The notes below the pieces were generated by a model. The model was given only the letters and a program-made list of their open reading frames with translations, was not told the origin of the DNA and searched no databases. Both the position numbers and the translations under genes were made by a program. A stretch of 63,224 nucleotides of DNA, the filler included, from Guillardia theta CCMP2712 (lineage: Eukaryota > Protista > Cryptophyta): NCBI RefSeq assembly GCF_000315625.1. It is 6 parts of 6 records of this genome, joined end to end, with 100 filler letters (N's around TTAATTAATTAA, not from the genome) between each part and the next. Parts side by side here need not be neighbours in the genome. Positions count along the whole stretch, not along the records: positions 21,953 to 52,456 come from NW_005434490.1; 5 more parts are not named here. One strand, given 5' to 3'. Shown here in pieces: positions 7,443 to 44,984 of the stretch; the first letter of the stretch is position 1; every line of letters begins with the position of its first letter.

Positions 7443-7519
<77 letters not shown>

Positions 7520-10462: not shown

Positions 10463-10514
10463 CGCGCTGTCTCGCACGCTCACAGCACGAGGAGGTTTTT
10501 TTTTTTGAGAGCCC

Positions 10515-10658: not shown

Positions 10659-10771
10659 TCACTGTCAAACCCTCGTCCCCGCTCAATCGCTCAATCCCTC
10701 CATGAGTTCACTGCCATGAGATGTCAAGAGGCGGAACGACGAGCTTGCTCCTCCTCCTCCTCCTCCTCCTC

Positions 10772-21952: not shown

Positions 21953-24263
21953 CGAAGCACGACCTGGGCGTCGCCATGAGCGAACTGAGCGGTAAGCGTG
22001 GCGGGAATTCGCTGTGTGGTCAATTGGAGCTGTCGCGCAACCTGACGCGAGATCACACTGATCTCAGCACCCGAGTCAAGCAAAGCCAGGATCTCGGAAG
22101 TAGCAGCTGGCACCGGAGAGGTGAGTGGTACAATGGGCAGATAGAGAAGCGATCCTGAAGACGCCCCGTGCTCCTGAGAGCCAAGGGAGTGGAGTGCAAT
22201 CGGATGCAAGTGTACCTCGAGAGCGTCACCGTCCAGAGGCACTTCATCTTCCAGTTCTTCAGCAAAATGCACCTGAGGACGGCGCTTAGGCGTCTTCGAG
22301 CGAGCAGCAATCTTGTTAGCTGCAACGGACGGAGCAGCCTTGCGGTCGTCGGAAGTCTGAACAGCGCCAAGCAGAGGCGGAGAGGAGGAGTCGGACGACT
22401 GCTCACGTTCAGGACTCTGACTGCGGCGGGTACGACGACACTCGGAAGATCGATGTCCGAGTTTGCCACAGTTGTAACAACGGATGGCATTGGTCGATGT
22501 GTTTGGGGACGAGGAGTCTCCCGCACTCTTGGCGTCCGGCCGAGCAGCACGGCGCTCTTTGAAGGCCGAAGCCTTGCCAGAAGGACGACTCTTGCGATCA
22601 TTAGAATTAGAGGAGCGATTGCCCACCTGCACGGAGTAGAGCTGCCGGTGGGGATCTGCTCCCGTCGAATGGTCTTTGGTTCTGGTCTGATTGTCGATCT
22701 TGAGCGCGTACTCCCTGAGCTGACGGAAGTCAACATCATCCGAACGCTGTAGAGTCACCCACTGATTCAAGAGTAGAGCAGTCATATGCGATCGGACACC
22801 ATTAATGAACCGTTTGCAGACCAGTGAGGACGTCGCAAATAATTTACCATCCGGAAGGAGCTGAAGTTGCTCGATTAAGGTCAGGGTTCGGGCAGCATAC
22901 GAAGCAAGAGATTCCTGACGGTCTTGATTCAAATTGTCGAGTTGGTGAATGAGATTCGACAGCAGGTGAGGAGGCAGGAATTTTTCACGAATTTCCTCTG
23001 AAAATGTATCCCACTCCATGCGGCGAAAGGTCTCTGGCGGGTACTTGGCCACGAAGTGTTGGCGCACTGGAGCATCCAGTAAATCGAGGGTATGGACAAC
23101 CCAGTTGGCTCGGGGGATACCATACACAGCAAAGGAGTACTGAATGGTTTGAACCCATGTCAAGACATTGTTGGCGCTAGTTTGGCGGGCAGTATCCAAC
23201 TTGGGGAGATTGCGCAACTTAGCAAGCAATTGCTGATCAGCCAGAGAGACCAGCTGAGGACCGTCACGCGAGGAGATGGGGGGCGGTCCAGGCTTGAGAG
23301 CGGCGGGCGGGACCGCCTCAGAAGAAGCAGGAGCTTCGAGAGCGTTCAACCGCTGCTGAACCTCCAGCAGCGCGGCAGACATGTTTTGGAGCGACCGATC
23401 CTCGGTCGATTCGGGACGAAGATCGTCGTCAATGCCGGCAGCAGATTGCCAGTCATGTTCCAAAGTATCCGTAGCATTCTCGTCCAGCATGCGAGCTGCG
23501 AGTCGAGTATTGTATCCGGACATCTACGCGACGTAAGCGTAGGAAGAAGCAGAAGAACAGTGGAGAAAGGGAGGGGAAGAGAGAAGACTCGATCTCTATC
23601 ACCGAACCAACCTTCGCTACCAATTTTATGTCACACCTCGAAGATTCTCGAGTGGACCTTCAAGCGCAGTTCAATAAGAACTCACGTTGGATTTCTCTAC
23701 TAAGAGGGAAAGCGGTGAAACAGAAGGAGATCTAACTCTCTTTTATTTCTTTCACACACACACACAAAACAAGACAAGACGATACACACAAAGACGTCTC
23801 AACAATCGTGGCACACACACGAAAGGGGAAGAGGACCACCTAGCTCTGACGAGTTTCATCCTTTTATAGCTTCGAGGAATGAGCCAGGGGTGCCGTCTCT
23901 TGGCTACAGAAAGGAGGGGTGTCCTGTTCTTGGAAGTTGACAAGCATCCCTTCTGACCTTCGAGAGGATACCATGCTCTCTCGCAGGGAAGAGAACCCCG
24001 TCCTTGCATGGCAGCAAGCTGCTTCCAACGGGTCGTACTGCACAAGACGCACCCCTTCTGTTTACCTTGTAAGTCCCCCACGGGTACACGGTTGCTGCAA
24101 CAAAGGCCTCCACAGGGGTCCTTTCAGCAGCTTCACACTGGAGTAGAGTATCCTGGGTCATCCAGGAGAAGTCAGCTTCGAACACGAGTACGAGACAGCC
24201 AACTGTCCTTTCATCCTGATAGGCCTTTGTCTGACTCGGGCTCGGTTCCTATGAGCTCTGACA
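21953..24263 (-). mobile_element. Ty3/Gypsy chromovirus copy 1: 5' LTR (23629-24263), PBS, gag and start of protease; truncated by the contig end
   Basis: Matches 41926-44236 (offset 19973) apart from the PBS region. CCHC knuckle CYNCGKLGHRSSEC; protease motif LLDSGA. Confidence 0.95.
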
Positions 24264-24563
24264 GACGTTCGAATTTGACCCCTGAGTTCCTCACTGTCAC
24301 CGATGCGTTCGTCTTGCTGACGCCCAACATGATCCGCCTCTTCGCCATCTGCTGCGCCATCTCTAGTTTCTCCTGCTCCTTTTGATTCCGCGAGGAGCGA
24401 GAGCTGGCCGTAGAAACCTCACAGGGCAAGATGTTGCCGATGCTGCGGCCTGATGAATGCATTTGTTTCTATGCCAGCCCAAAGTCCACAAGCAAGTACT
24501 TCTTATTCCTTCTGTCGTAGAGCCTCCGAGGAAGTTATTCAATTTCACGTCTCGATGTATAAT
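24264..24563 (-). pseudogene. CDC7: CDC7-like kinase pseudogene fragment, interrupted by the LTR
   Basis: IIHRDVKLNNFL-[8-bp insertion]-YDRRNKKYLLVDFGLA* matches the CDC7 signature HRDVKPxNFLYxRxxxxYxLVDFGLA; frameshift and TAG are present. Confidence 0.7.
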
Positions 24564-25245
24564 AAATGTATAATGTATAAGACAGTTCTTGCTCAAGACC
24601 GAGTTTAATGCACACTGTGACACGAAACCACTGAGAATTGAGGCCGCTCAGCACCGTCTGCACATGAGACGTGACTCCCGACTGTCACAGTGGTATGCTA
24701 GAATATGAAACTCAAGCATCATCATGATTGCAACGCCGCCGCTGTTCATCACACGGACGGCCCACTGCCCGGTACCGCCGGGCATTGCCGCCGCGTGGGG
24801 CCGCCGCCTGGCTCGGAACTTGACTCTCACCCGGGTGACCGTTCAACCCGGTGACCGTTCAACGGTTGACTCACCGGTAGCCTTGAAGCCTGGGACCGGT
24901 CCGCCGGAGAGTCCGGCTCGCCCGGCCGCGGCCGTCGGACCTTGAGTTTTCAGTGTTCAATCATAACTGATGGCAGCGGGGCTATCTGATCGGACTGGCC
25001 GCACTGCGGCATGGCTGGCATGCTGATCCCCGGCATTAAGAGTCGGCAGTGCCGACGGTGACCGTGTCACGCGCCGGGCTGCGGCCGCGCCGGACTCGAC
25101 TCGGAGGCTCGGAGCCCGCGTCCGACTCGGAGGCTGGCCTGCCTGGCATTGCCGCGCCCTGAGCCCCGGGCGGCGCTGACTCATGGCATGCCGGAACTTG
25201 GAACACTCAGTGCGCCCGAAATGATTCAGGGCCACAAAAAATATT

Positions 25246-25650
25246 TGGAACAACTTGAAAATTGAGGGGTTGTTCGGCCTGAAATCTTTGTGTGTCACGC
25301 AAGCAAGTCCAACCTACATGGAACAACGTGAAAATTGAGGGTGTTCGGCCTGAAATCTTTGTGTGTCACGCTCCTCCAAGTTTCAAGTTGTTCCATATAG
25401 TTTGGAGCAAGTCCAACCTACATGGAACAACGTGAAAATTGAGGGGGTGTTCGGCCTGAAATCTTTGTGTGTCACGCTCCTCCGGCCTGAAATCTTTGTG
25501 TGTCACGCTCCTCCAAGTTTCAAGTTGTTCCATATAGTTTGGAGCAAGTCCAACCTACATGGAACAACTTGAAAATTGAGGGGATGTTCGGCCTGAAATC
25601 TTTGTGTGTCACGCTCCTCCGGCCTGAAATCTTTGTGTGTCACGCTCCCC
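25246..25650. repeat. Array of direct repeats interleaved with ~32-bp-stem imperfect palindromes
   Basis: Six copies of CGGCCTGAAATCTTTGTGTGTCACGC. Hairpins TTTCAAGTTGTTCCATATAGTTTGGA-gcaag-TCCAACCTACATGGAACAAC(G/T)TGAAA at ~25374-25443 and ~25511-25580. Confidence 0.9.
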
Positions 25651-28283
25651 GGCATCGCAAGTCAGCTTTGATGGCCATTATGGCCTTCACAGGCGTGGCT
25701 GGCCCTCCGAAGCTCAATCATGATGCATCGCCAATACGATATCAAATATCAAAATAAAAATATCAATGTTGAAAGTTTCCCGCCACTGTGAACTCTGCGA
25801 AGCCGTACAGATATGAGGATGTGCAGCGTTTGACAGAGCAAGACAAGTCAGGTGAGCATTTATCTCTTTTTTTTTCATCGAAATTATCACGGGAAGAGAT
25901 CCAAATGACGTGTTCTTGATGCAGGTTGGAATGATTTGCAGCCTTTGGCAACTTGTATGAGATTGATGAACGGGTGAAGACTTTGGCAAGTGCCCAACCA
26001 ATATTACAAACCGGTATCCAGGAGTACGTAGACGTACCAGTAAGCCGCCCAGCATACAAAACTCTCGAGACAATGGCTGCATACGAAGGGGTTTTCGACA
26101 CATCGCAGAACTGTCCCGATGTGAAAAGGTTGTGACATGAAATGGGCACAAACAAAGATAAGTTCAGGACTCGGGAGTCGATCAGGTCTAGGCAAAATAT
26201 TGACATGGTCATCTCACTGCATGGAAGAACATGCAAAACTGAAGGAAAAGCTCAACAGAAAGTTCTAAATGAACATCTACAGCGCATTTTAGCAGTCACG
26301 GTCGGAGCAGGTTGATGCTTGAAACAAAGATGATCCTCAGTACAATCGAATGATGACAAGTAAGTCCCGTGGTTCGTGAAGGATTCTTCATCCAATTCTT
26401 AAGGATGTGTTGGAACGATGAAACATTTTGCAAATCACCAATTTCATCACACTGACTGATGCATCATGTAAATATTACTGGTGTGAACTTGCATCAGATT
26501 CTGTTCATCGGATGAACCGCTACCAAGCAGTTGATGTCACAGCAAACAAGAGAGCCGTTTTGAAGATGCTGATATTCCTGACCGTAGAGCATTCAAGATG
26601 TGGCCACATGTCACATGCTTCTTGGTTAACGCAGATACACCCTCGCCAGGCAAAAGATGGAACGTCTTCAGGATTACAGGGAGGTCGGTTGTGCTTGTAC
26701 CCTGATTGTAACTCTTCTAATAAAGATATGATAACCTGAATGTGCAATTCTGTTTGTTGATTCACAGTGTTTGCGACTCGATTGCAATCATCGAGTGCTT
26801 GCTCTGTTGAACAAGGCACTCCTCTGTAGAGCCATGCGACAAGAACACTACAGTTGCACGGTAGCATTGCGACACCAAGACAGGATTGATCCGATGAACG
26901 TCTCATTTATTGATACGCAAAGGCGTCATCTGCACATTGTTTCATTTCTGACTAGGTTTCTGTGCAATCGAAATCCTTGTGAAAATATCATGAACGAGGA
27001 AAAATTTGAAGCGAAACGGAAAAATCATCGAAATATGATCATGGATATAGTGATTCATGATCAACAACGGTTCTCTACAGTCATCTATGCGGGCAGGAAC
27101 AGTCATCTTCTGTGCAAACGTCTCTTCATGTATCGTTGAACGGTTGAGTGCATGTAAGACTTGCCTCCATAGAAAGGTGAAGTGCATGAATCCTGACTGT
27201 AAGACTAGAAGAATTGAAAGCAAGTGATGACATGAGAACACATATCTAGACAGAAAAGTCGCTCAAGGTACAGCTGGATACAAATTTCTCACAAATCACA
27301 GTCATGCATTTGAGCGCAACGTGCAACCTACGGCAATTTGAATAAAGGGTCAATCAGAGTTGATTCTGTTCAATGGTGTATCGATTATCAATTCCTTACC
27401 TGATCATAAAAATTTCATCTTGTCTTCGAAGAATATTTGCAAGTACACCCGCGGATTGTTTGAACCTAGGGTGCATATTCCATTGCAGGATGGATGATTC
27501 AAAACCTTGGCCCAACCTGTAGAGTTGAGAAAGAAGCTCGATCATCTCTTACAGGTATGATATGAGATCTTCATCTCATTTCTATCTCAGTTGGGTTGGA
27601 TTCGAAGTCTCTCAATATCAAGGTTCATCCTGGTGAGTCAGGAAGGCACCATTTCATCGCTTCTTGCTCGTCCAGGGAGAGGGGGCTTGGGGAATGAGAA
27701 ATGGGGGTTACCCCCACCCCCTATTGTAGAGTTTCAAACTCGTTCAAAGGTGGGTAGTTGAGGGTGCTCCATACCCACCCCACCACCCAAAATGACTCAA
27801 ACGGAGGGGTTCTCGGATCCGAAGGAGTCCCGCCTCCATCACCCCCTCTCATTTGAATTGAATGGTTCAGGCCGACCCCACATACAGGCTTGCAGTTTTC
27901 TTATGTATGCCCATATGATTTGATCGGACAGGCCCCAGGTTCAAGGGATGAAGCAATCACCAGCATGCTTGAAGATTTTTCATGGGAGTGGGGTTATACT
28001 TGTACCGGGTGTGTACAATACATAGGGGAGAAACCCGAATGGTACCAAAAGAGTACCAAAGTCACATGGTTCGGACTGTACTAACTGGTACCAAGAAATT
28101 GTACTCAAGAAGACCCTACCCCTGAAAAAGTCCTGCTTGGCTCTTCGTGATTTGAATTCGGAACACGGTCGGAAGACCCACCCCGCCCCCACATGAGGCG
28201 TGGTATGCGTGGATTTGAATCTGCCACCCTCACCGCGAAACGTTTTAAAGCTACAAGGTCAATTGAGAAAGGCAACGCTATGA

Positions 28284-30584
28284 GTGAGGAAGAATGTCCC
28301 GCTGGTGGTCCTGCAGCATCTCATAACCCATCTGGCCCAGCTGATGACCCTGAGTGGCTTCAGGCTCCTTTTCAACGAGACCACCTGCGTCTCCAAGCAC
28401 ATACTGCACGAGATCAACACCTTCTTCTTTGTGGTCATGGAGCCTTTCCTGAGCTCGGACGTGAACGAGCAGCTAAGGTTTACGAGGAAGCAGGAGGGTC
28501 TGATGTTCTCACTGGGAATCCCTCAGCACATGCAGCTGATCGTGTTGAGAAGGATCATCAGTGAGTTCCAGAACCCGCGCCGCGACAAGGGCGAGTGGTT
28601 CGACTTCGATGTCATCCTGAGGGATTGCATGATGGAGCTCATGTTTGCGGACCTCTCGGTGCAGACTCTGGTCTCCTCGTATGTGAGCAACATCACATAC
28701 GACACGGTCATGTATGTCATGTTCCGGTCTGCGATGCGCCTGTTGCAGGTACCGGATTCGTACTCCCTCCCCTTGTTGGTGAGGGTGGTGAGGGCGGGGG
28801 GTGTGCAGAATGTCCCGGAACTGGATGAGGCGGAGAGGGTCGCCATGATCGAGCTGAGGGAGTGGATCAACGGGAGGCTGAAGTTCCTCGTGATGGCCCG
28901 CGACCTCTACACCTCGAAACCCCGAGACCAGCCCGATGCACAGCCTTACAGCTACCTGGGGATCAACGAGAACTACACGAATTCAGAGGGGAGGACGGTG
29001 TTCATAGCCGACAACTGCCTGTTTGCCGAGGGTGTGGCAGAGGAGGACGATGAGAGCAGCAAGAATATCTGGAACACAATGAGGAACTTTATCGTGATGA
29101 TACCCGAGTTCCAGAACGCATTCTCCAGCTTCCGCATGCACAAGGATGCGATCACGCCCACCCTTTTGAATCAGCTCTTCAACATGAAGAAGATCAATCG
29201 AGAGTGTCTTGACATGCTCTTCGGTATCGACAAGCTGAAGTTCACTCGTATCCTTGAGGCCCTGGGGGTGAACATGTCTCTTGTGCCCCTTTGTTGGAAG
29301 AACATGTCCCTGCATTCTGCCTTGAGGGACGAGGGGAATCGAAATTCCAACGTGTTCAATCTTGTCTATGTGGGGAAGAATTCGTGTGTGTTGACTGTCA
29401 ATATGATCGCCCTGGTGGTGTTGTCTCCCTTCTTCCAACCGGACAACATCAACATCCTACACCAGCTGCAGCAGAGGCATACGACCTGCAAGGCCGTGCA
29501 GATGGCGATGGTCCAGAGGGTGCCGAGGGCGTATTGGCCCATGGGGAGCTTCCCGGTCATGCAGGTCGATCACCACGGCAAGTGGCTGAGGTTTGCCATG
29601 CCCGCCGCGGAGAAGGTGCCATACCATGTGAGCCTGTTCCCTAGGGATGACAGCATCGACTGGTGCCACAAGGTGCCGAAGCTGAATGGGAGCACCTCAC
29701 AGCTCTATCCCTTCTACGAAGAGGAGACGGCTGTGTGTGGGAGCGTGGTAGGCATGGTGAAACGCATGAAGGATGGCATGTCCCTCTCCGATGAGAGCAC
29801 ACACATTGACGACTACTTCGAGGTGATCAGGAATATGGGGGAGGAGGTCACGCATAGCTTCTTCAATCTGGACAGCGATAGCAAGGAGCGCTACATATTC
29901 TACAACGGAGGGCAGTGGATACTGGTCCTGTTGGGCGGCAGTAAAGACGCGACCGTATCTGTCTTTGACGAGGACGAGACGGGGGAGAACCTCATCCTCA
30001 TGGAGGACATAACCACTTCGGTGAGTGGCTTGCATGGGGTGTTGATGGGCCTGCATGCCGTCCCCTTCCCTCGTATATTCACGGAGAGGCTGGTCTACGG
30101 CGGGCAGGGCTACCGCGGTTACTTCAGGGGCTTGCAGGAGTCCGACTGCATCAGCGACTTTGGGGTGGTGAGAAGGAACAGTGAAGGTACGTGGCTGGAC
30201 TCCGAGGGTGTCTATTCAGTCGAGTTCTACGACGCGGTGTCGGGGGGACCACGGATTGCGTCTGTCTCGGTCCTGCATATCGCCAAGGTGCTCGTTGGAG
30301 AGCTGCAGAGGATGGTGGTCTCGTTCGACTCCTTCCCCAAGGGCAAGCTATTCCTTCCAAGCCGTGAGGAAGACGGGCTGCTCTACGTCTATAACTACCC
30401 GTCCATCCGGCCTTCGGTGGCGGTGGGCATGTCCTGCTACTCCAATGGGATCTACGAGGAGGCGCTGGAGACGATGATCTTCCACGTGAGGTACTGGAAC
30501 CTCTTGCACGAGAAGATAGGGACAGAGACGGACGATGTCATCAACGAGTGTGTCGCCTACTCCTCCATTTGGGAGGTGAATTGA
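28284..30584 (+). CDS. Large intronless ORFan (766 aa), putative viral protein, 5' end decayed
   Basis: Long stop-free ORF with G/C-ending codon bias and no low-complexity introns. It begins at GTG directly after an in-frame TGA. Confidence 0.75.
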   Translation: MRKNVPLVVLQHLITHLAQLMTLSGFRLLFNETTCVSKHILHEINTFFFVVMEPFLSSDVNEQLRFTRKQEGLMFSLGIPQHMQLIVLRRIISEFQNPRRDKGEWFDFDVILRDCMMELMFADLSVQTLVSSYVSNITYDTVMYVMFRSAMRLLQVPDSYSLPLLVRVVRAGGVQNVPELDEAERVAMIELREWINGRLKFLVMARDLYTSKPRDQPDAQPYSYLGINENYTNSEGRTVFIADNCLFAEGVAEEDDESSKNIWNTMRNFIVMIPEFQNAFSSFRMHKDAITPTLLNQLFNMKKINRECLDMLFGIDKLKFTRILEALGVNMSLVPLCWKNMSLHSALRDEGNRNSNVFNLVYVGKNSCVLTVNMIALVVLSPFFQPDNINILHQLQQRHTTCKAVQMAMVQRVPRAYWPMGSFPVMQVDHHGKWLRFAMPAAEKVPYHVSLFPRDDSIDWCHKVPKLNGSTSQLYPFYEEETAVCGSVVGMVKRMKDGMSLSDESTHIDDYFEVIRNMGEEVTHSFFNLDSDSKERYIFYNGGQWILVLLGGSKDATVSVFDEDETGENLILMEDITTSVSGLHGVLMGLHAVPFPRIFTERLVYGGQGYRGYFRGLQESDCISDFGVVRRNSEGTWLDSEGVYSVEFYDAVSGGPRIASVSVLHIAKVLVGELQRMVVSFDSFPKGKLFLPSREEDGLLYVYNYPSIRPSVAVGMSCYSNGIYEEALETMIFHVRYWNLLHEKIGTETDDVINECVAYSSIWEVN

Positions 30585-30637
30585 TGGAGCTGTCCATAGA
30601 TAAATATTTATTGTGTCACCTCGGTAGCGTTGAGTAA

Positions 30638-30922
30638 ATGGATAACTGGATCGCCCCGACCTGTGCCCAGGAGAGTGCGTCTCTGATCGAGAAGCCGATG
30701 GGCATGTCACTCAAGGGGGTGGTTGATGCGATGGGTAGCGTGCCCGCATCACTCTTTACGTGGAGGTCGAAGCCCCCGCTCTCGGAAGAGCCGAGCTACA
30801 CATCCCAGCCCTGCATGCAGCAGACAGTGTACGATCTTGAGCAGAACGCCATGGTATCGATGCCATTCTACAGCTCCATCACCTCTTCCGCTGTGATCGG
30901 CCCGGACAACCCGGATTACTGA
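30638..30922 (+). CDS. Small intronless ORFan (94 aa), putative viral protein
   Basis: ATG lies within TAAATG, 53 bp after the previous stop; the stop overlaps the convergent ORF by 7 bp. Confidence 0.6.
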   Translation: MDNWIAPTCAQESASLIEKPMGMSLKGVVDAMGSVPASLFTWRSKPPLSEEPSYTSQPCMQQTVYDLEQNAMVSMPFYSSITSSAVIGPDNPDY

Positions 30923-32424
30923 TTGAACATGAGGGCCTTGAAGAGCTCTGCCTCGTTGATGGGGTTCTGGCTTACGAAGGTCTCCACGGACTGGATCACT
31001 GGGAAGCTGAGCACCGGGAGGATGTGCCTCCAGCAGTCCTTCCAGATGTGCTTGACCTGGTAGGCGCTGACGTACAGCTGCAGGAGGCGGGAGAGGGTCA
31101 TCTCCTTCATGTTCTTCTGCGAGAGGCCGTCGAGGCACTCGTCCTTGAACTTGGCGAGCTCTAGGAATGCGTGGGACCTGAAGTCGATGTTGCTTATGAT
31201 GTTGCATATGACGCTGTACTCTGGATTCACCACCGGGTTGTTCACGATCGTGGTTGCGAGGTCCTTGGTCAGGCAGCGGCTGATCCATTCGTGGTGGTTG
31301 ACCGTCGGCATCGACATGAGGAGATACACGGAGTGCCTCGTCTTCTTGCTGATGGTATTGGGGAATTTCACAAAGTTCATCCATACGTCGAAGGTGTGCA
31401 TGTTCTGCGCGGAGATCCCTACCTTGCTCTCCGCCTTGATGTCCTTGAGGAAGGAGGTGAGCCTGGGCCTCCCCTGGTAGACCTCGATTTCCTTCTGCTT
31501 CATGTGCCTGTCTATCTCCTGCTTGGTAAACATGTAAACCTGGATGTCGCTCTGGAAGGTAGGCGCCACCGTGATGCAGCCGAGTATCGTCACGGCGGCC
31601 TCGTTGTACTCCTCCGTGGTGAAGCGCTGGTCCCCGAGCTTGGCCGTGAACTGCAGGCACCGCGTCCGGATGTTCCCCCCTATGATGTCGTCGAGGTACC
31701 GCTCCATGGCATGGTATCCGGTGAGCCCCACGATGTTCAGGAGGAGGTACACCTTGATGACGTCCGTGACCCATATCTCGTCCGCCCCTACGAATCCCAC
31801 CCCCCGCAGCAGGGAGCGGAAGGTGTTGAAGTAGGCCAGCGCCTCTACCTCCGTCTGCACGTCCTCTGTGAAGTGGATGTTGTGCAGGAACGTCAGCCAG
31901 CAGCTGGTGTCCCCCAGGCTGTTCTGGTTGCACTCGACGATGTTCTCCTTGGCCCAGCCCCAGTCCACAAAGGGGACGTCGATGCGCTTGGACTTGAAGA
32001 TGCGCTCGAACACCTCGCTGTGGGTGATGCCCTTCATGTTGCCGCGTCGGATGATGAAGGCGGTTATGGAGGCTATGTGCTCGTAATCCACCCCGATGTC
32101 CTTGCATGTCTTGATGTACTGCCCTGTTACCTTGTTGCTGATGAACTTGCCGACGGCCTCCTGCGTGGGCTCGGTGGATACAGGGATGTGCGCCCGCCTC
32201 GGGATAGACCCACCTATCCCGACCTTGAGGAGTGCGTTGGACTGAGTGTGGGGTTTCTTGCTGCTCTTGTCGAAGAAGGTGAAGGAGCTCTGCTGTGCAC
32301 CCACGACCTTGAGGTGCTTCATGTCTCTCAGCGCATTCGTGTTGATGTTGTCTATACCCTTGAGGGTAGCCATTCTTGCTGTGTGTGGGTCTGGTGCATT
32401 GTAAATATACAGGTTTTCAATCAT
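30916..32424 (-). CDS. Intronless ORFan (502 aa), putative viral protein
   Basis: Protein-like composition with G/C-ending codon bias; TAAATAC immediately upstream of the ATG. Confidence 0.8.
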   Translation of the reverse strand: MIENLYIYNAPDPHTARMATLKGIDNINTNALRDMKHLKVVGAQQSSFTFFDKSSKKPHTQSNALLKVGIGGSIPRRAHIPVSTEPTQEAVGKFISNKVTGQYIKTCKDIGVDYEHIASITAFIIRRGNMKGITHSEVFERIFKSKRIDVPFVDWGWAKENIVECNQNSLGDTSCWLTFLHNIHFTEDVQTEVEALAYFNTFRSLLRGVGFVGADEIWVTDVIKVYLLLNIVGLTGYHAMERYLDDIIGGNIRTRCLQFTAKLGDQRFTTEEYNEAAVTILGCITVAPTFQSDIQVYMFTKQEIDRHMKQKEIEVYQGRPRLTSFLKDIKAESKVGISAQNMHTFDVWMNFVKFPNTISKKTRHSVYLLMSMPTVNHHEWISRCLTKDLATTIVNNPVVNPEYSVICNIISNIDFRSHAFLELAKFKDECLDGLSQKNMKEMTLSRLLQLYVSAYQVKHIWKDCWRHILPVLSFPVIQSVETFVSQNPINEAELFKALMFNQ

Positions 32425-32436
32425 GGTGTATTTACG

Positions 32437-33204
32437 CTAATGTACAGCCCCGGTATTGTCTGTTTTGGCGGGTTTGACGAATTTCACGGGCTCCCTCCTC
32501 TGCGTGTCGATGTGCAGCACCCGGCACAGGGTCCAGGGGTCGTGGCCCAGGTTGACGATGCACTCCACCTCGTGGGGGACGTTCTTCGTGAACCACTCGA
32601 AGTTCTTTGTCGCGCTCGCCTCGTGCCCTATCCATTGCAGGGACACGAGGCCCTTCATATCCTTGAACATGCCCAGTAGTATCTTGTATCGCTCTAGCGG
32701 GTCGCTGTTTGTGACGCTCTCACCCTTGTACATCGCGATATCATAGATCAGGACCCTGGGCTCCATGCCCCTCTCCGTCCTGTCCTCGACAAAGTGGGAG
32801 AGGATCATCGTTGACTTGGGAACCCGATGCCCCAGCATAACGCACTCGGACGCAAAGAGTATGCGCCCGTTGATTCCAACATAGGTCCTCTTGCTGTCGT
32901 CGACGTAGATCAGAACGGGGACCCTGTGCCTCGGGAGCCAGGTAGCCATCCTCACCTTCCCACACTCATCCGTGCACTCCCTCAGGTTCCGGCACCTCGG
33001 GTTGGTGCAGACAGGGTGCGTCCCCCGGTGGAATGCGTGCAGCTCTACGACCGACTCCCTGGTCATCTCCGTGGGCATGCCGAACACGTCGAAGGACTCG
33101 CAGACGCACAGATGAACCACCGCCTTGGCCACCATGGGGTCGCACTCCCAAGAGGCCATACAGGCCAGGGCGGCGTTGCCAAACAAAACCAAAAAAGTCC
33201 CCAT
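32437..33204 (-). CDS. Divergent covalent nucleotidyltransferase-fold protein (mRNA capping guanylyltransferase / DNA ligase / snurportin-like), putative viral
   Basis: TMILSHFVEDRTERGMEPRVLIYDIAMYKGESVTNSDPLERYKILL resembles motifs III-IIIa and the following helix of capping enzymes. No clear KxDG motif I. Likely start is MGTF at 33204. Confidence 0.6.
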   Translation of the reverse strand: MGTFLVLFGNAALACMASWECDPMVAKAVVHLCVCESFDVFGMPTEMTRESVVELHAFHRGTHPVCTNPRCRNLRECTDECGKVRMATWLPRHRVPVLIYVDDSKRTYVGINGRILFASECVMLGHRVPKSTMILSHFVEDRTERGMEPRVLIYDIAMYKGESVTNSDPLERYKILLGMFKDMKGLVSLQWIGHEASATKNFEWFTKNVPHEVECIVNLGHDPWTLCRVLHIDTQRREPVKFVKPAKTDNTGAVH

Positions 33205-33251
33205 CCTCCCATCTTCGCCCTTTTTATTTTCTGTATTTAAACGATGCATCT

Positions 33252-34517
33252 ATGCCGCCGGGTGAGAACATGAAAGCCTCCTCGCTCATCACTCTCCTGC
33301 CTTACCTCATACAATGGGGTTCGATCTTCTTCCAGTACCGATATATGGACAACTTGCTGACTGATGTCGCGGACGTCGCCGTCAGCGTCAACCTGTTCAT
33401 TTTCAACATGTGCACGGGCAACTACCTCGTGTATGCCAACCATGCGAACCTCGCGCTGGGCGTCTTGAGCATCTCCGTCTGGAGGTCCATGATCTGCGCC
33501 CTGCATTGGATGATCATCCCAAAAGATCCCACCGACGAGCTCTATGTGCCGCTGATGCTGCCCATAGAGGCCATGCCTCTCTTCCGGATCCTGTTCATTC
33601 ACAAGTACCCGGTGTTGACAACCAGCGTGAGCATCGATCTTATACCCCTGTTAGCCCTCATGAGCCTGGAGTTCGTCTCCACTTACCTGACGACCAACGG
33701 TATCTGCCAGTGCCATTGGGGAAAACTGAATCTAAGCATGGTAGTGGCGCCTACATTCTTCACGAGATCCTTCAACGTGATGTACTACCTGAACATCATC
33801 GGCATTTTCCATGTGATGTACGCGCTTCTATCGTTCATGAGCACCATGTATTTACTTATGGAGGCTGACACGTTGAACCTATACAAACACACGGCCAAAC
33901 TGGCCCGATTGCAAAGAGAAATAGTACCGTACGTCAAGACCGACCGTGACATGGCGAGGAAGATACTGGACGAAATAGACTCTGTGTCTATGTCCATCTC
34001 AAAGAGTGATACCACCATACACGTGTTCATGGTCTTGTACACCCTATCGAGTTTATTTTCGGTGCTGCCGAAATTCCACTTTTCGTACTCCGACGGCGAA
34101 AGTTCAACCTGCATGCCGATATACGTAAAAGACAACAGAGTGAATACAAAGACTTTCCACAAGAGGCTGCGCGATGGCTTCAGACCCCTCTTCAAGCTTG
34201 CCGTCGTATGCAATACGGCCGGATACGTCACTTGTGGCGTCATCATCGCGGCCTTCTATGTGGTCACTCGCAACTCTGTTATCGCACTCTCATCTATCTA
34301 CGTACTATGGATGCTCTCTACGCTGCAAACAATGCATATCGGTGACTTCTTCACCTATATCGACCAGCTGTACACGAAGCACCCTGACAAGAATAGGTAT
34401 TTCCATATCAAAACTGCTGTGACAATGCATAACTGTGCGTTCGTCACCCGGATGTGTTTCACATACCTGGTGATGCCACCGACGTTGTACGTTACGTTTG
34501 CCTATTCCTGGTGGTAG
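33252..34517 (+). CDS. Intronless polytopic membrane protein (421 aa), putative viral
   Basis: Many hydrophobic segments in two blocks separated by a charged helical linker; divergent from the 33204 ATG across a 47-bp spacer with an AT-rich core. Confidence 0.75.
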   Translation: MPPGENMKASSLITLLPYLIQWGSIFFQYRYMDNLLTDVADVAVSVNLFIFNMCTGNYLVYANHANLALGVLSISVWRSMICALHWMIIPKDPTDELYVPLMLPIEAMPLFRILFIHKYPVLTTSVSIDLIPLLALMSLEFVSTYLTTNGICQCHWGKLNLSMVVAPTFFTRSFNVMYYLNIIGIFHVMYALLSFMSTMYLLMEADTLNLYKHTAKLARLQREIVPYVKTDRDMARKILDEIDSVSMSISKSDTTIHVFMVLYTLSSLFSVLPKFHFSYSDGESSTCMPIYVKDNRVNTKTFHKRLRDGFRPLFKLAVVCNTAGYVTCGVIIAAFYVVTRNSVIALSSIYVLWMLSTLQTMHIGDFFTYIDQLYTKHPDKNRYFHIKTAVTMHNCAFVTRMCFTYLVMPPTLYVTFAYSWW

Positions 34518-34642
34518 TTGGATTTAAGATTAAACCGCGTATCAAGATAATCCGTGCTCTGATGCTCCTGTGTGTATATATTCCATCCTCCCACTTACCG
34601 CCCTAGATCATCTCGGATACCCTCCGGCTGCCCGCCCTTAGC

Positions 34643-35137
34643 ATGACTGCGGTGCATGCGACGATGCCGTCGGACAACATCTTCTCGGGCATCAAGCCGG
34701 ACGACCGGGTGGTGATCGAGAACGTGATCGCCGTGATGAAGTCACTCAACCGCGACCTCTCCTTCTCTGACTTTGAGGTCCGCAGCACCCAGAATGGCTT
34801 CGTGCTGATCGCCAAGACATCCTCCCATGTCATGGTGGGGATCGACGATCTTCACACCGCCCTTGCACGTCGGGGGTGCATCCCCCCTCAGCTCTGCAAG
34901 CATGAGCTGTCCTACTACCAGGATACCGCTTCGCGAAGTTCTTCACCCTCTCGACGTGGCATGATCTCCGATACAGCAGGTTGCGAACGCTCTCATCATA
35001 CTGTAGTACCATGCTTAGAAAGCTTTTTGAACTATACGAACCTCTTGCTCGCAGCTTCCTCCGGTCCCCTTGCGCTCTCCCTACGCGCCGCAGAGCAGCA
35101 TGCCTCTGTCAGGGGCCCCCTAAACCCTAAACCCTAA
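34643..35137 (+). CDS. Putative viral ORF; probably truncated near 34860 and reading through into foreign/telomeric DNA
   Basis: The N-terminal ~72 aa share the codon style of the block. The C-terminus loses it and ends in PLNPKP* inside the telomeric tract. TATATA upstream at ~34576. Confidence 0.5.
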   Translation: MTAVHATMPSDNIFSGIKPDDRVVIENVIAVMKSLNRDLSFSDFEVRSTQNGFVLIAKTSSHVMVGIDDLHTALARRGCIPPQLCKHELSYYQDTASRSSSPSRRGMISDTAGCERSHHTVVPCLESFLNYTNLLLAASSGPLALSLRAAEQHASVRGPLNPKP

Positions 35138-35166
35138 ACCCTAAACCCTAAACCCTAAACCCTAAA
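35118..35166 (+). repeat. Interstitial telomeric repeat (CCCTAAA)7 = (TTTAGGG)7
   Basis: Seven perfect units; Arabidopsis-type telomere repeat. Confidence 0.97.
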
Positions 35167-37447
35167 GTACCCTCATACAGCATCGGACTTAGGCCGCCGT
35201 TGGGTCCGACGGTCGGTCCAGGGTCGGTCCCGGAGTTGCATAAATCAATGCTCTCACGCACTCAGTGACGACACTGAGTTTCGAGCAAGGGGGAGTGAGA
35301 TTCGAAGATGTGTACGGTAGTACTGGACGTAGACGTACGTACAACACATTGGTATGATGAAAGCATGAGGCTGGTATAAACCGATACACATGTTTACTCA
35401 TTGCTGTACTATCGCTCACGGTTGCTGGACTATACCCGCATCAGCTAAGAACTATTGTTCCTTGCTCATCTCTCGCCTAAGGATCTGTCTAAAGGGGTTC
35501 CCAACCTTGGGAGGTTGGCCCGTTGTCCTATAGGCCCCGTAGGCCTGGTTGCTTCCGTATTAGATGTTTTCAGTGCCCGGCGGCCCGTCCTCCGGGCCGG
35601 TCCGGTCTCATGTCCGATCCCGGTTCCCTTGGCTGGCCCCTATCCCGGGCAGCCGTGCTTCTGCTCTGCTCCCTCCTTTGATCATACTTCAGTGGTCTTC
35701 CCCGGCCTCAGCCAGTGGAGTTTCCTCCGCCGGCCTTGCGGCATGGGTCGTCCGTGCTTTCAAGTTTACTTGTGTTGCTTCCTCGGCCTCGGCACTCAGC
35801 ATAAAGTAACTGTTGAACGGTCACGGTAATTTCCACTACCAGTACCCCCCACCGCCTACTCTTAATCTTGAAGAGGTGGGGTACTCGATGCAACCGCTCG
35901 ATGGGAGGCTGCAGCAAGGGGAGGGGAACGCTTCCAACGCTTCCCGTGGGCCGTTTGGGATGCTTCTTGCATGCTCTGACCCCCATTCGGATGTCTTGAG
36001 ATGGGATTTCGGGGTCAGATGTGACATTTCTGCACGCTAGCCATGTTTTACTAGGTAGTCGCTGATTTTCTGATGAACGCATGCGCACCCAATTTCTGAT
36101 CTCGCGATGCAGGCTCATACGTCACCAGGACGCAAGACCAGCAGAAGCTCGTGGTTTTTTGTGAATCTCATGCGAGTTTTGGATGATTCTTTTCCTATGA
36201 TATCTGAGAGGCTGCGCTGCAGGTTCATATGAATTCATAGGAATTCAAGCCTAGACGGGAGACTGACGGGAGCCAGCCTGGCAAGCAGGAGAGGACGAGA
36301 GACTGACAGGAGCCTGGATGGGAGCCAGTCACTAGTAGGAGGCGAGCGGAGATTCTGTGGAGGAAAGAGGCGGGAAGCGGCTCATAGGTTATCTGCATGC
36401 TTGTATTGATTCTAAAATTGCTGCTTCAAGGGGAGATGATGCACGGCCCCCAAGCCTTAAAATCACTGTGCATCACCTTGCAGCATAGGCATAGGCAGGT
36501 CAACCTAGCTGACTACAACACTACTGACTCCCTGCCGTCGCTTGTCTTAGCTTGCCACCACAGCGTCATGGAATAAGGCTACCTAACTGCCAGCACACTG
36601 CTCCCTACAGTAGCCTGCCACCACTGCAGTGTCAGGTCCTTGAAGCCCACCCACCGGATGTGCTGCGAGAGCCAGCCGGTCCTCTTCCTGCTGTTCATCG
36701 TCACCGTCACATCCTGTGGCTCGTCGGAAGCTGCAGGCCATCTACCCTGGCGCACAAGGTGCCGCTCTAGAGCTATGTCATAGTCCTCCCCGCTGATGTA
36801 ACCGAGGGAGCACTTGTCGTCTAGAGCGTCAAGGGACGTCCAGTCGTCAGGGTTGTCCTTTCTTCCCACGATGAACAGATGACGGAAGGACCTGCGGATG
36901 GACTTGATGCCGAAGGTCCTGTCACCACTCCTGCACGAGGACGACTTCACCTCCAGCGGCTCTCGGCACAGCGGCAGAGGTTCACCCCGACTCGACCCGC
37001 TGACCTGTCTCTGGGGCCCAACTATGATACACCCGTCGCTCTTGCCATGCAGCCCACCTGCCTGTGCAACGTCGATCAGAAGCTGATCGGCAGGGATGCC
37101 GATGCTCAAGGCCTTCAGTGCCAAGGGAAGTTTCCCGATCCGCATCTTCTCCTTCAAGCCCTGGACGTAGCTTGCGTTCCCCACAAGGCGAAGCAGATTC
37201 GAAGACATCAAGGCTCGCAAGATTAACTCGTCAACCTGACCTTCTCCATCTCGACACCGCGGCTCATGATCTGTGTCCAGGCACTGCAAAGCCCCTGCAG
37301 CGCCGTACTGTGAGCTGCCAACAACGTGCACATCCGATGTCATGACATCATCGGCCACTGAATCTGCACCCTCTCCCGCCGCCGGACAAGGCAGGCGAGG
37401 CTCCGAAACATCAGGCCGCTTGGCTACAACAGGCGAGTGTAGCATGG

Positions 37448-37702
37448 ATGTCTCCGCTGCCCCCGTCATCTCCGATGTCTCCGCTGCCCCCGTCATCTCC
37501 GATTTCTCCGCTGCCCCCGTCATCTCCGATGTCTCCGCTGCCCCCGTCATCTCCGATGTCTCCGCTGCCCCCGTCATCTCCGATGTCTCCGCTGCCCCCG
37601 TCATCTCCGATGTCTCCGCTGCCCCCGTCATCTCCGATGTCTCCGCTGCCCCCGTCATCTCCGATGTCTCCGCTGCCCCCGTCATCTCCGATGTCTCCGC
37701 TG
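37448..37702. repeat. 27-bp coding minisatellite (ATGTCTCCGCTGCCCCCGTCATCTCCG), left part; continues at 44237-44385
   Basis: About 9 units left of the element and about 5 right of it. Confidence 0.95.
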
Positions 37703-40700
37703 TGTCACACCTCGAAGATTCTCGAGTGGACCTTCAAGCGCAGTTCAATAAGAACTCACGTTGGATTTCTCTACTAAGAGGGAAAGCGGTGAAACAGAAG
37801 GAGATCTAACTCTCTTTTATTTCTTTCACACACACACACAAAACAAGACAAGACGATACACACAAAGACGTCTCAACAATCGTGGCACACACACGAAAGG
37901 GGAAGAGGACCACCTAGCTCTGACGAGTTTCATCCTTTTATAGCTTCGAGGAATGAGCCAGGGGTGCCGTCTCTTGGCTACAGAAAGGAGGGGTGTCCTG
38001 TTCTTGGAAGTTGACAAGCATCCCTTCTGACCTTCGAGAGGATACCATGCTCTCTCGCAGGGAAGAGAACCCCGTCCTTGCATGGCAGCAAGCTGCTTCC
38101 AACGGGTCGTACTGCACAAGACGCACCCCTTCTGTTTACCTTGTAAGTCCCCCACGGGTACACGGTTGCTGCAACAAAGGCCTCCACAGGGGTCCTTTCA
38201 GCAGCTTCACACTGGAGTAGAGTATCCTGGGTCATCCAGGAGAAGTCAGCTTCGAACACGAGTACGAGACAGCCAACTGTCCTTTCATCCTGATAGGCCT
38301 TTGTCTGACTCGGGCTCGGTTCCTATGAGCTCTGACACGCTCTTCTCTGCGCTTTCTTGGAGTGCTCAGGACTCAGAAAACTTCGCTTTCTCAGCTTGTC
38401 AAATCTGTTTTTCCTCTGACACGCTCCAGGCGCAGCACGTAAAATTCCTAATTGAGAGGCGCACGACGCTGCCGCTGCCGCTGTCCATGAGAAGAAGCAG
38501 AAGCATCTTGACGCGTGCGATGCTGTTCATATTGCTGAAGCAACTGACGGAGCGCCGGTGTACGCGAGAGATGGGCAACAGGTTCCCAAGTGTCGTCGGC
38601 GGAGGAAAATCCCTTCCAACGAACCAGATATTGCTTCGCACCATTACGTTGACGATGATTGATGATGCGAGCCACTTCGTAGAATCCAGGTACAGGTTGG
38701 GAAACCACAGGCTGCTGCAAATGATCTTTCCTGCGCACATGGGGGCGTAGGAACTTGGCATTAAAAACATCTTGATCCATGCGAGGGAAGCGCTGGCGAA
38801 CATCAACTCGATAATTGTTGTTGTTGCAAACCTCGGTGATAGGGAAAGGACCAATGTATCGATCTCGAAATTTGCGAATTTCAAACTGCTGATTGAATAA
38901 ACGCGCGTCGATCCAGACCAAATCACCAACTTGCCATCGAAGCGGGCGGCGAGAAGGAAGTAGACGCGTCTCTGCTCGATTGGCGATCGAGGCCAAGGTA
39001 TCTCGCACAAGGTTTTCACCTGCACGTATGTTGTCGACAGTCGTGCGGGCTTGAGGAAGAACCTGATCAAGGGTCAAATCCATAACTGAGCGCGGATTCT
39101 TGCCATATTCCACTTGAAAGGCAGATAACCCTGTTTCACGACGGGGGGCATGATTGAGGGCAAACTCAATGAATGGAAGATGGACTGTCCATTCAGATGA
39201 ACCCTGAGCGAGTTTAGTGCGGAGCATATCCAGAATGGTGGCATTGATCCGTTCAACGCGACCATTGGCCTGGGGATAGTACTTGGAAGAGTGGCGTACC
39301 TGAACACCTAGCGTCTGAAATACTGTATCCCAAAAATGCGAGGAGACATTTGGCCCATTATCCGAAAGGATTGCAGCAGGAAGACCACGAGTGCGATAGA
39401 AGTATTGGAGAAATAAATCCACAAGTTCCTGGGTCGTAGCAGACTTGTGAGTTGGAGCCAGCGTGACATGTTGCGAGAACGAGTCCAACATGACGAAGAG
39501 AGAATCATGACCTTGGGAGGTAGTCGGAAGTCCGCTGAGGAGATCGACGGAGATGACGTCAAATTTGTCAGCAGGAACGTCATGACTCTTGGGCAAACCG
39601 ATGGGTTTCTGTTTGTAGTTCTTCGCAGCCTGGCAAATGAGGCAGGAATGCACGTAATTTTCGACATCACGCTTCATGTTATTCCAGTAGACTTTGGCAA
39701 CAAGTGAGAGGTAGGTCTTGTCAGAACCAACATGTCCGGCATCATCGTGTGCAAGGCGTAGTACAGCCGCGCGGATAGCGGTAGGAACACAGATCCTCGT
39801 CCTGCCGGTAGAATCAACATAGTAGAGCAAGTCATCCGAAAATTCAAAATGACGACAACCCGGTTGGCCGAGCAATTCGCCGTCTTTGCCCAGTTGGTAT
39901 AAAACCTGAAAGTCAGGACAGGTGGAGTAGTTTTGCATCAGTTGGGAGACGAACGAGGAATCCGTAAGCATCTGAACGGTATGAAGACCAACAAGAAGAT
40001 CCCGAGCAATGTCTTCAGCGCGCATAGCGCGATCATGAGCCTGAGTCAGATCAGCGGGTGATTGGGGAGCGAACGATGGAGCAGGCGAGTCGCCTGAGAT
40101 CCGACTGAGGGCATCAGCAACGACGTTAGTTTCGCCAGGGATGTGGTGGATCTCCATGTCGTACTGAAGGAAGGTAGACAACCAACGAGCCAGGCGGGGA
40201 GAGAGTTCAGACTGGGTGTTCAATCTGATCAAGCTGTGGTGATCGGTACATACACGAAAGCGACGACCAATCAAGTAGTAGGAAAAATGACGGAGACTTT
40301 CCTTGAGAGCAAGAAGCTCACGCTCATAGGTGGAGTAATTGCGTTCGGCGGAGGAGAGTTTCTTGCCATAAAATGCAACGGGATGTTCCTCGTTGTTTTC
40401 ATCGATCTGATGAAGCGCGGCTCCAATGGCCAGGTCGCTAGCGTCTGTGTACAGGATGGTCAGCCGATCAGAACGGAAGTGAGCCAAGACTGGAGCCTGC
40501 GTAAGAGCTGTCTTGAGCGCGGCAAAAGCAGTCTCAGCAGACCGAGTCCACACGAAGCGACGTTGACTGGTTTTCAGCAGATCTGAGAGAGGTGCAGCAT
40601 AGTTGGCAAAATTCTTGATGAAACGCCGATAAAAATTGGCGAGGCCTAAAAATTGGCGAAGTTGTTTCACAGATGCAGGAGGCGGAAAATCTTCGATGGC

Positions 40701-44236: not shown

Positions 44237-44526
44237 CGCTGCCCCCGTCATCTCCGATGTCTCCGCTGCCCCCGTCATCTCCGATGTCTCCGCTGCCCCC
44301 GTCATCTCCGATGTCTCCGCTGCCCCCGTCAAATCCGATGTCTCCGCTGCCCCCGTCATCTCCGATGTCTCCGCTGTCTCCGCTGATGGACAGCAAGGCG
44401 GCTGGCAACATCCGCATGATGGACTCGCAGGCCAAACCATCCCAGGGAGCAGGAATGTGTGTGTAGGAAGAAAGTGACCAAGGCATGAGGAAGGAGAGGA
44501 CGAAGAGCCGGGGAAGGAGGAAGGAG

Positions 44527-44822
44527 AGGCATGGCAATGGAAGGAGGAGCCGGGGCAAGAGCAAGAGGAAGAAGGAGCATGGTGATGGAAGGAGGAGCCG
44601 GGGCAAGAGCAAGAGGAAGAAGGAGCATGGCGATGGAAGGAGGAGCCGGGGCAAGAGCAAGAGGAAGAAGGAGCATGGCGATGGAAGGAGGAGCCGGGGC
44701 AAGAGCAAGAGGAAGAAGGAGCATGGCGATGGAAGGAGGACAGGTGTGGGGGGGAGCAGCCGGGACAAGAGGGGGGGGGGCAGCCGGGACAAGAGGGGGG
44801 GAAGCAGCCGGGACAAGAGGAA
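44527..44822. repeat. 48-bp tandem repeat (~4.5 copies) followed by three short GCAGCCGGGACAAGAGG units
   Basis: GGAGCATGGCGATGGAAGGAGGAGCCGGGGCAAGAGCAAGAGGAAGAA repeated. Confidence 0.9.
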
Positions 44823-44984
44823 GGAGGGGGGGGATGGGAGGAAGTTGAAGAGCAGGTTGGGAGACCCAAGGAGCAGGAACAAGACACAACAGGCGCTGAT
44901 ATCGCGTGATTCAAAAGCATTTTCGCTTTCCAGAGTCTTCGAGTTGGCTGGGGCAAGTTAAAATAAACTTCAAAAAAGTGAGGT

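What the first reader, a model, noticed from the sequence alone, without database searches (positions are those of the whole stretch)
27660..34860. Endogenous giant-virus-like gene block made almost entirely of ORFans
Seen: six intronless ORFs (766, 94, 502, ~255, 421 and ~72+ aa) packed with gaps of -7, 12, 47, 53 and ~125 bp. They have AT-rich spacers and no microsatellites, unlike the intron-split host genes in this window. One has a capping-enzyme-like fold; I cannot assign the rest. Known: large dsDNA viruses (Nucleocytoviricota, Mirusviricota) leave endogenous segments in protist genomes. Inference: this is a fragment of an uncharacterised large virus of this host. The lack of recognisable NCLDV core genes makes a mirusvirus-like origin a reasonable candidate.
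Basis: partly seen in the sequence, partly recalled or inferred. Interest (0 to 1): 0.88.

Follow-up and report, generated by a model that had tools for sequence, protein, structure and literature searches.

The report
Silent mirusvirus-like relic in algal genome
Six tightly packed, intron-free genes with almost no RNA coverage, cut at both ends by high-copy repeats, are likely a leftover piece of a large DNA virus (probably a mirusvirus, a distant relative of herpesviruses) in the genome of what is likely a cryptophyte alga, a kind of relic already reported from these algae.

Summary
The block is real but runs 28283-34867, not from 27660. Its first four genes are colinear with a metagenome contig (L001) at 83% nucleotide identity, with dN/dS of 0.11-0.20. 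It is a fragment: ORF1 is only residues 988-1752 of a 1,752-aa protein, and high-copy repeats cut both ends. One RNA run shows almost no coverage.

The genes are not all ORFans. ORF3 belongs to a family of 339 clusters with no Pfam name, and ORF1 has six full-length relatives. The nearest named relatives come from cryptophyte data sets.

A low-confidence model of the full-length ORF1 protein matches MCM helicases (top 9 rows, Z 6.5-7.7), but a profile comparison did not confirm this. An MCM-type 'licensing factor' is a published core gene in 52% of mirusviruses and 0% of nucleocytoviruses. Mirusvirus capsid genes are already reported from cryptophyte assemblies. No capsid, portal, terminase or polymerase gene was found in the block or in L001, so membership is inferred.

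Verdict: a silent, truncated relic of a large DNA virus (about 0.9), most likely a mirusvirus (about 0.65). New member of a known kind.

The parts
25200..28282 (.). High-copy repeat DNA that cuts the block on the left (host repeat or mobile element, type not determined; left edge approximate)
   Evidence: Contig depth 1,000-10,700 in run X1 over 25022-28270 against 79 in the block; part of it is read in RNA run X18; internal tandem repeats at 25246-25648
28283..30584 (+). ORF1: C-terminal 766 residues (988-1752) of a 1,700-1,830-aa protein whose middle is predicted to be an MCM-like AAA+ domain; the Walker-A/B-like region is missing here
   Evidence: 85% identity to L001 residues 988-1752, dN/dS 0.11; relatives P0017-P0022 and Hanusia phi P0002/P0003; model and fold search; motif positions 769-920
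30638..30922 (+). ORF2, 94 aa, unknown function
   Evidence: Present in the same place in L001 at 53% identity, dN/dS 0.20; no Pfam hit
30916..32424 (-). ORF3, 502 aa, predicted mostly helical member of a large unnamed family (conserved RPxLR, xFPN and LYxxxYQxxxxWxxxW motifs); likely a conserved viral gene
   Evidence: 339 clusters at E<=0.001, 80 at <=1e-30; no Pfam family matched by more than 1 of 91 members; 90% identical to L001, dN/dS 0.12; named paralogues in Guillardia theta at 43% and 58%
32437..33204 (-). ORF4, 255 aa, stand-alone capping-enzyme/ligase nucleotidyltransferase-like domain without the KxDG catalytic motif; likely inactive as a guanylyltransferase
   Evidence: PF01331 E 0.009 over residues 127-185 and PF01068 E 0.12; no DG pair in the 255-aa sequence (the KxDG motif is recalled); 81% identical to L001, dN/dS 0.15
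33252..34517 (+). ORF5, 421 aa, predicted multi-pass membrane protein of unknown function
   Evidence: Four hydrophobic 19-residue windows scoring >=1.6; no Pfam, NCBIfam or viral-contig hit, PHROGs best E 0.36; no deep homologue search was run on it
34643..34867 (+). ORF6, 5' part (~74 aa) of a gene cut by a repeat
   Evidence: GC3 0.84 up to 34867; contigs of runs X1, X2 and X6 have loose ends at 34868, and depth jumps in the last bin
34868..35166 (+). Very-high-copy repeat ending in seven telomere-type heptamers; cuts the block on the right
   Evidence: Depth 36,000 in X1 in the bin 34769-35100; heptamer array seen

Best explanation
The block is likely a silent, truncated piece of a mirusvirus genome left in the chromosome of a probable cryptophyte alga, with both ends cut by high-copy repeats. 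Shown: four genes in the same order as a metagenome contig, purifying selection since the two diverged, intact internal frames, both terminal genes cut at repeat boundaries, and almost no RNA in one run. Inferred: viral DNA present in the nucleus was captured into a chromosome, probably during break repair (no integrase gene was found in the block), and repeat insertions with deletion then trimmed it to 6.6 kb. In the parent virus, the 1,750-aa ORF1 protein would be an MCM-type replicative helicase, ORF4 a non-catalytic capping-enzyme-fold protein, ORF3 a conserved viral protein of unknown role and ORF5 a membrane protein. The endogenous copy cannot supply the predicted helicase, because the ATP-binding part lies upstream of the break.
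For: Colinearity with L001 over 28286-33159 at 82.7% nt identity, and dN/dS 0.11-0.20 for ORFs 1-4. An ORF1 relative and an ORF3 relative have the same longest-contig length in two more cases (9,901 bp: P0008/P0020; 58,234 bp: P0015/P0021), a hint of conserved linkage that I could not read directly. Model of L001 residues 501-1250: the top 9 of 48,161 chains are MCM subunits (Z 6.5-7.7, rmsd 4.6-5.7, 205-253 aligned), and rows 10-14 are BchI, ComM, MCM8/9, RavA and PfMCM. Gaia et al. list a 'DNA replication licensing factor' cluster in 52% of mirusviruses and 0% of NCLDVs. Medvedeva et al. list OG0000022 in 469 mirusvirus genomes, with no Pfam entry and structural hits to a human replisome chain and SCCmec Cch, and OG0000759, a 627-nt stand-alone guanylyltransferase fold in 51 genomes. 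Kazlauskas et al. found SF3 (D5) helicases in NCLDVs and no SF6 helicase in eukaryotic viruses as of 2016. Zhao et al. report mirusvirus capsid clade E03 from three cryptophyte assemblies, including G. theta. Named relatives come from G. theta, Hanusia phi and Rhodomonas salina. No relatives turned up in GTDB genomes, phages or eight IMG/VR scans. RNA depth is at most 0.11 in all 18 bins from 28271 to 34768.
Against: No HK97 capsid, portal, triplex, terminase, PolB or RNA polymerase gene was found in the block or in L001, so nothing ties these genes directly to a mirusvirus genome. The MCM call is soft: mean pLDDT is 43, and residues 302-483, which hold the Walker-like motifs, are under 50. 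Z is below the level (about 8) that the tool says unrelated models can reach. Foldseek found nothing at E<=0.001 in PDB or BFVD. Profile comparison with 12 archaeal and viral MCMs gave probabilities of 0.1 and 0.2 (low profile depth). The Walker-like motifs are non-canonical, and the protein is about 1,750 aa against 1,030-1,100 aa for OG0000022. None of the 29 clusters looked up carried a virus name. The left junction is bridged by only 30-33 letters of repeat; no bridge of the right junction was among the pieces shown.
Confidence: 0.65

Rival explanations
1. A fragment of an endogenous nucleocytovirus (NCLDV), possibly a reduced, nucleus-dependent lineage.
For: NCLDVs infect a heterotrophic cryptomonad (PMC12747079, passages). 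A G. theta row carries an entry in the VLTF3 column of an NCLDV survey (PMC5294986; other tick marks were lost in the text). Capping-enzyme folds are common in NCLDVs, and the BFVD hit of OG0000759 is a mimivirid protein. NCLDV lineages that lost replication genes exist (bioRxiv 10.64898/2026.08.29.747986, passages).
Against: NCLDVs use D5/SF3 helicases, and the licensing-factor cluster is listed at 0% in NCLDVs. The ORF3 family has no shared Pfam family and no member among 10 motif matches in IMG/VR (the motif is carried by 55 of 150 listed relatives). A scan of 11 cultured strains, cryptophytes among them, found no giant endogenous viral elements (PMC12220804, passage).
Confidence: 0.12
2. 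A fragment of a large dsDNA virus or virus-like element of a group not yet named, with an MCM-like helicase and a wide aquatic distribution.
For: A 339-cluster family with no name in Pfam, NCBIfam or PDB, and no PHROGs hit for the window member. Full-length ORF1 relatives are much longer than the published mirusvirus licensing factors. No hallmark gene was found.
Against: Two of the six genes have published fold-level counterparts in mirusviruses, and cryptophytes are reported to carry divergent mirusviruses (clade E03), which would look just like this. One family cluster holds Tara Oceans proteins.
Confidence: 0.15
3. Cellular or transposon-borne genes of the host, a bacterial operon, or a mis-joined contaminant contig.
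For: The nearest named relatives are in algal genome and transcriptome sets. Block GC (0.50-0.59) is close to the rest of the window. Long-range linkage rests on the assembly alone.
Against: No introns, gaps of -7 to 125 bp, and genes on both strands. No GTDB or phage relative. Hundreds of diverse relatives are called as single ORFs on metagenome contigs. Runs from two studies hold the left junction letter for letter. There is no N gap between 21953 and 52456.
Confidence: 0.05

Closest known systems
Mirusvirus clade E03 signals in cryptophyte assemblies (Zhao et al., PMC10827195)
   Same: Probable host group; viral genes on scaffolds of algal assemblies; divergent from marine reference mirusviruses.
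   Different: E03 is defined by capsid proteins. This block has no capsid or other marker, so it cannot be placed in E03 from these data.
Mirusvirus core 'DNA replication licensing factor' (gu_c_747 in PMC10132985) and OG0000022 (PMC12768974 supplement)
   Same: Large protein with no Pfam entry listed for OG0000022 and an MCM-like fold seen only by structure.
   Different: About 1,750 aa against 1,030-1,100 aa; sequence homology untested; the window copy lacks the ATPase core.
Mirusvirus OG0000759 stand-alone mRNA guanylyltransferase fold (MIRUS_G_0022)
   Same: Short (about 208 against 255 aa) capping-enzyme adenylation fold with no significant Pfam hit.
   Different: Homology untested; ORF4 lacks the KxDG motif, and whether OG0000759 keeps it is unknown to me.
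AurliV-2, integrated mirusvirus of Aurantiochytrium limacinum (PMC12606086)
   Same: Mirusvirus-type DNA within a protist chromosome.
   Different: AurliV-2 is about 300 kb, sub-telomeric and partly expressed. This is 6.6 kb, cut by repeats and silent in the one RNA run laid.
Giant endogenous viral elements of Nucleocytoviricota
   Same: Gene-dense, intron-free, repeat-eroded viral DNA in an algal genome.
   Different: No NCLDV core gene was found here, and the helicase-like protein is predicted MCM-type, not D5-type.

Membership tests
Mirusviricota | HK97-fold major capsid protein, portal, triplex, terminase or maturation protease in the same genome | tested here: inconclusive
   None found in the 6.6-kb block or in the 8.9-kb L001, but both are small fragments, Pfam detects mirusvirus virion proteins poorly, and no whole genome was held.
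Mirusviricota | MCM-type 'licensing factor' core gene (52% of mirusviruses, 0% of NCLDVs) | tested here: inconclusive
   The fold search puts MCM subunits in the top 9 rows at Z 6.5-7.7 on a pLDDT-43 model; profile comparisons and Foldseek were negative.
Mirusviricota | Sequence homology to published mirusvirus gene clusters | not testable with these tools
   No mirusvirus profile library was on hand; short ORF3 motifs were not found in the readable supplements of PMC10132985 and PMC12768974, which may simply hold no protein sequences.
Mirusviricota | PolB / RNA polymerase phylogeny within the phylum | not testable with these tools
   No such gene was found in the block or in L001.
Nucleocytoviricota | Double jelly-roll capsid, A32 ATPase, D5 primase-helicase, VLTF3, PolB | tested here: inconclusive
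   No Pfam hit to any of these among the six ORFs or the five L001 proteins scanned; the fragment is too short for absence to decide.
mRNA guanylyltransferase (PF01331) | Catalytic KxDG motif I (recalled) and a score above the family cutoff | tested here: not met
   16.3 bits against a cutoff of 29.6, profile positions 67-126 only; no KxDG in the 255-aa sequence.
MCM helicases (PF00493) | Sequence match and canonical Walker A/B motifs | tested here: not met
   No Pfam hit for the 1,752-aa protein; hhalign probability 0.1-0.2; the motifs in place are SKRDS[AT]GFNF and F[IV][SP]ED[CS]H. It may work like an MCM without being a member.
Endogenous viral element | Contiguity with host DNA | tested here: inconclusive
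   No N gap across the region. Contigs of X1 (28253-31945) and X2 (28253-28793) cross the left junction with no differences, but with only 30-33 letters on the repeat side. No right-junction bridge was among the 24 pieces shown (843 more not shown). No long reads were laid.
Polinton-like virus | 14-40 kb element with terminal inverted repeats, capsid and packaging ATPase | tested here: inconclusive
   No such genes were found and no long inverted repeat flanks the block among the 25 longest listed, but the original ends are lost.

The most novel reading that the evidence does not exclude
The block marks a large nuclear DNA virus lineage of cryptophytes, either a deep mirusvirus branch or a group not yet named, that replicates with a giant (about 1,750-aa) MCM-like helicase with rewritten Walker motifs and carries a catalytically dead capping-enzyme fold. 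ORF3 would be an unrecognised core gene shared by hundreds of such viruses, usable as a new marker.
Probability: 0.25. Interest if true: 0.75.

Novelty: new member of a known kind. Interest (0 to 1): 0.45.

Why it matters
As a relic it is modest: mirusvirus traces in cryptophyte genomes are published. Its value lies in the leads it gives. First, it ties a 339-cluster protein family with no name to a cultured algal host group and to a probable replication gene, so the family may be one of the ten unassigned mirusvirus core genes (PMC10132985) and a new marker. Second, it offers non-capsid genes for the little-known cryptophyte mirusviruses. Third, MCM-type helicases were reported absent from eukaryotic viruses in 2016 (PMC4889955) and were later listed in mirusviruses; this one is unusually long and divergent. 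Intact frames and an 83%-identical environmental contig suggest that close relatives still circulate.

Tried and rejected
No whole genome was held, so other copies and capsid genes in this assembly could not be searched.

Domain libraries: Pfam, PHROGs and NCBIfam gave nothing but the weak ORF4 hit. PDB sequence searches were empty or chance. The ESM Atlas gave no usable hit.

The ORF3 model (7 sequences, pLDDT 40) was folded before the 339-member family was known and gave no credible fold. Its best BFVD row was Ranid herpesvirus 2 ORF44 at E 0.02, TM 0.08, and its best VIA Z was 6.0 on a helical bundle; neither is used as evidence.

Eight IMG/VR scans found no relative; all 10 motif matches were chance. 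The GTDB scan with A5 and the phage tblastn were empty. Profile comparison with MCMs was negative.

Telomere-targeted integration, as for AurliV-2, was considered because a telomere-type array lies about 250 bp right of the block. I judge it unlikely (about 0.1): the array ends a very-high-copy repeat whose other copies run further 5' than 34868 (loose ends), so it looks like the tail of a truncated repeat.

The microsatellite argument was rejected. Run X6 (freshwater metagenome) holds near-identical pieces of the block but also the flanking repeats at higher depth, so it is not evidence of free virus. Four look-ups of earlier findings returned nothing.

Paper searches listed no paper describing this locus or the ORF3 family, but most subscription papers are not held. 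Three supplementary files of PMC12768974 were too large to read, one had no text and two were cut; they may list these families.

Full report
Observation. The six ORFs and their gaps are as described, with three corrections. ORF1 is 766 codons only from stop to stop; from its first ATG it is 746 aa. The block starts at about 28283, not 27660. The lack of microsatellites is shared by all 16 two-kb bins from 22001 to 54000, so it does not single out the block. Codon-position GC (GC3 0.72-0.87, GC2 0.34-0.48) shows real coding sequence. I did not check the host genes for introns.

A relative in a metagenome. A scan with the ORF3 alignment returned 2 loci from 183 pattern matches. L001 (8,899 bp, GC 0.59) aligns with window 28286-33159 at 82.7% over 4,893 bp and carries ORF4, ORF3, ORF2 and ORF1 in the same order and orientation. 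Amino-acid identities are 85, 53, 90 and 81% for ORFs 1-4, and dN/dS is 0.11, 0.20, 0.12 and 0.15. In L001 the ORF1 gene encodes 1,752 aa; the window holds only residues 988-1752, and no piece of the 5' part was found elsewhere in the window. Five further full-length relatives of 1,702-1,826 aa exist at 38-52% identity. Whether L001 is a free virus or another endogenous copy cannot be told.

Boundaries and expression. I laid 4 of the 24 listed runs on 24300-35100. In X1, contig depth is 79-179 across 28271-34768, 1,000-10,700 across 25022-28270 and 36,000 in the last bin; X2 shows the same shape. The tool warns that these depths are not copy numbers, but the contrast marks repeats on both sides. 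In X6 one record stops matching at 28282 from the left and another from the right, so the junction is seen as a break from both sides. On the right, three runs have loose ends at 34868, where a repeat cuts ORF6; no bridging piece was among the 24 shown. RNA run X18 (about 6% of the run read) gives depth of at most 0.11 in all 18 bins of the block, against 10-36 over parts of the left repeat.

Who has these genes. Close relatives of ORF1 and ORF3 carry names only from cryptophytes: Hanusia phi, two Guillardia theta proteins on 244-kb and 420-kb contigs and, further out, Rhodomonas salina. I infer a cryptophyte host from this. A profile of 12 ORF3 sequences found 339 proteins at E<=0.001, 215 at 1e-10 and 80 at 1e-30 among 1.84 billion cluster representatives. 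I looked up 20 of the 150 listed: they come from Logan, ENA, JGI and Tara contigs, none named as a virus isolate. No Pfam family matched more than 1 of 91 aligned members. GTDB genomes, phage genomes and IMG/VR gave no relative.

What the large protein is. The alignment shows conserved blocks at residues 769, 842, 896 and 915 of the L001 protein, spaced like Walker A, Walker B, sensor 1 and arginine finger but with non-canonical residues (the motif names are recalled). A model of residues 501-1250 has mean pLDDT 43, and the part holding those motifs is under 50. Against 48,161 solved chains, the top 9 rows are MCM subunits (Z 6.5-7.7, rmsd 4.6-5.7, 205-253 residues) and rows 10-14 are BchI, ComM, MCM8/9, RavA and PfMCM, which I recall as one AAA+ clade. 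That clustering is the evidence. The Z values alone are within what the tool says unrelated models reach, Foldseek found nothing, and profile comparison with 12 archaeal and viral MCMs was negative. I rate the MCM-like fold at about 0.7. All four motif blocks lie before residue 988, so the window copy lacks them.

Comparison with the literature. Gaia et al. (PMC10132985; passages and one supplement row) list a 'DNA replication licensing factor' among 35 mirusvirus core clusters, in 52% of mirusviruses and 0% of NCLDVs, and leave ten core clusters unassigned. Medvedeva et al. (PMC12768974; passages, supplement searches, and parts 23 and 36 of file 10) list OG0000022 in 469 genomes with structural hits to a human replisome chain and to SCCmec Cch (that these are MCM-type is recalled), and OG0000759, a 627-nt guanylyltransferase fold in 51 genomes. 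Kazlauskas et al. (PMC4889955; passages) found no SF6 helicase in eukaryotic viruses and D5/SF3 helicases in NCLDVs. Zhao et al. (PMC10827195; passages, part 2 of 5, supplement rows) report capsid clade E03 from three cryptophyte assemblies, and MCP, triplex 2 and maturation protease signals for the G. theta assembly. For the rival, NCLDVs do infect a cryptomonad (PMC12747079; passages) and reduced NCLDVs exist (bioRxiv 10.64898/2026.08.29.747986; passages). PMC5294986, PMC12220804 and PMC12606086 were seen as passages only.

How it most likely arose. Shown: gene order, selection, truncation at repeat edges and silence in one run. Inferred: DNA of a nucleus-replicating virus was captured into a chromosome and then trimmed by repeat insertion and deletion in a repeat-rich zone that also holds an intact LTR retroelement. 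Intact internal frames suggest this was recent. The relic would make no virus and no working helicase.

Verdict. Large-DNA-virus origin about 0.9; mirusvirus 0.65, unnamed group 0.15, NCLDV 0.12, cellular or artefact 0.05. It works like a mirusvirus gene block, but membership is not proven, since no virion hallmark could be tested. New member of a known kind; interest 0.45, mostly for the ORF3 family and the long MCM-like protein.

Noticed in passing
window 37703-44236: Apparently intact Ty3/chromovirus LTR retroelement: 1,682-aa gag-protease-RT-RNase H-integrase-chromodomain ORF (38448-43496, -), identical LTRs of about 635 bp with TG...CA ends and a 5-bp target duplication; very recent.
   Followed up: partly
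window 21953-24263: Second, partial copy of the same retroelement, 99.8% identical over 2,312 bp, next to an assembly gap.
   Followed up: partly
window 36579-37702 and 44237-44961: A minus-strand ORF with 27-bp tandem repeats, apparently split by the LTR element; its C-terminal part has a D...ExK pattern that recalls restriction-like nucleases (from memory; no Pfam hit).
   Followed up: no
window 47174-51058: Single long ORF (1,294 aa) with Roc, COR and TIR domains, an immune-type architecture.
   Followed up: no
window 25200-28282: High-depth repeat region of lower GC (0.45) with tandem and inverted sub-repeats at 25246-25648 and RNA reads on opposite strands either side of about 26830; element type unknown.
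   Followed up: partly
window 31881-34407: Contig depth in X1 rises from 79 to 98-178 and contigs break into short pieces, hinting at a second near-identical copy of the ORF3-ORF5 region elsewhere.
   Followed up: no
window ~32040-32047: ORF3 has two extra codons that all six aligned relatives lack; either a change after integration or an assembly error.
   Followed up: no
L001 8032-8774: Two further small ORFs (136 and 109 aa) upstream of the large gene, absent from the window; only sub-cutoff Pfam hits.
   Followed up: partly
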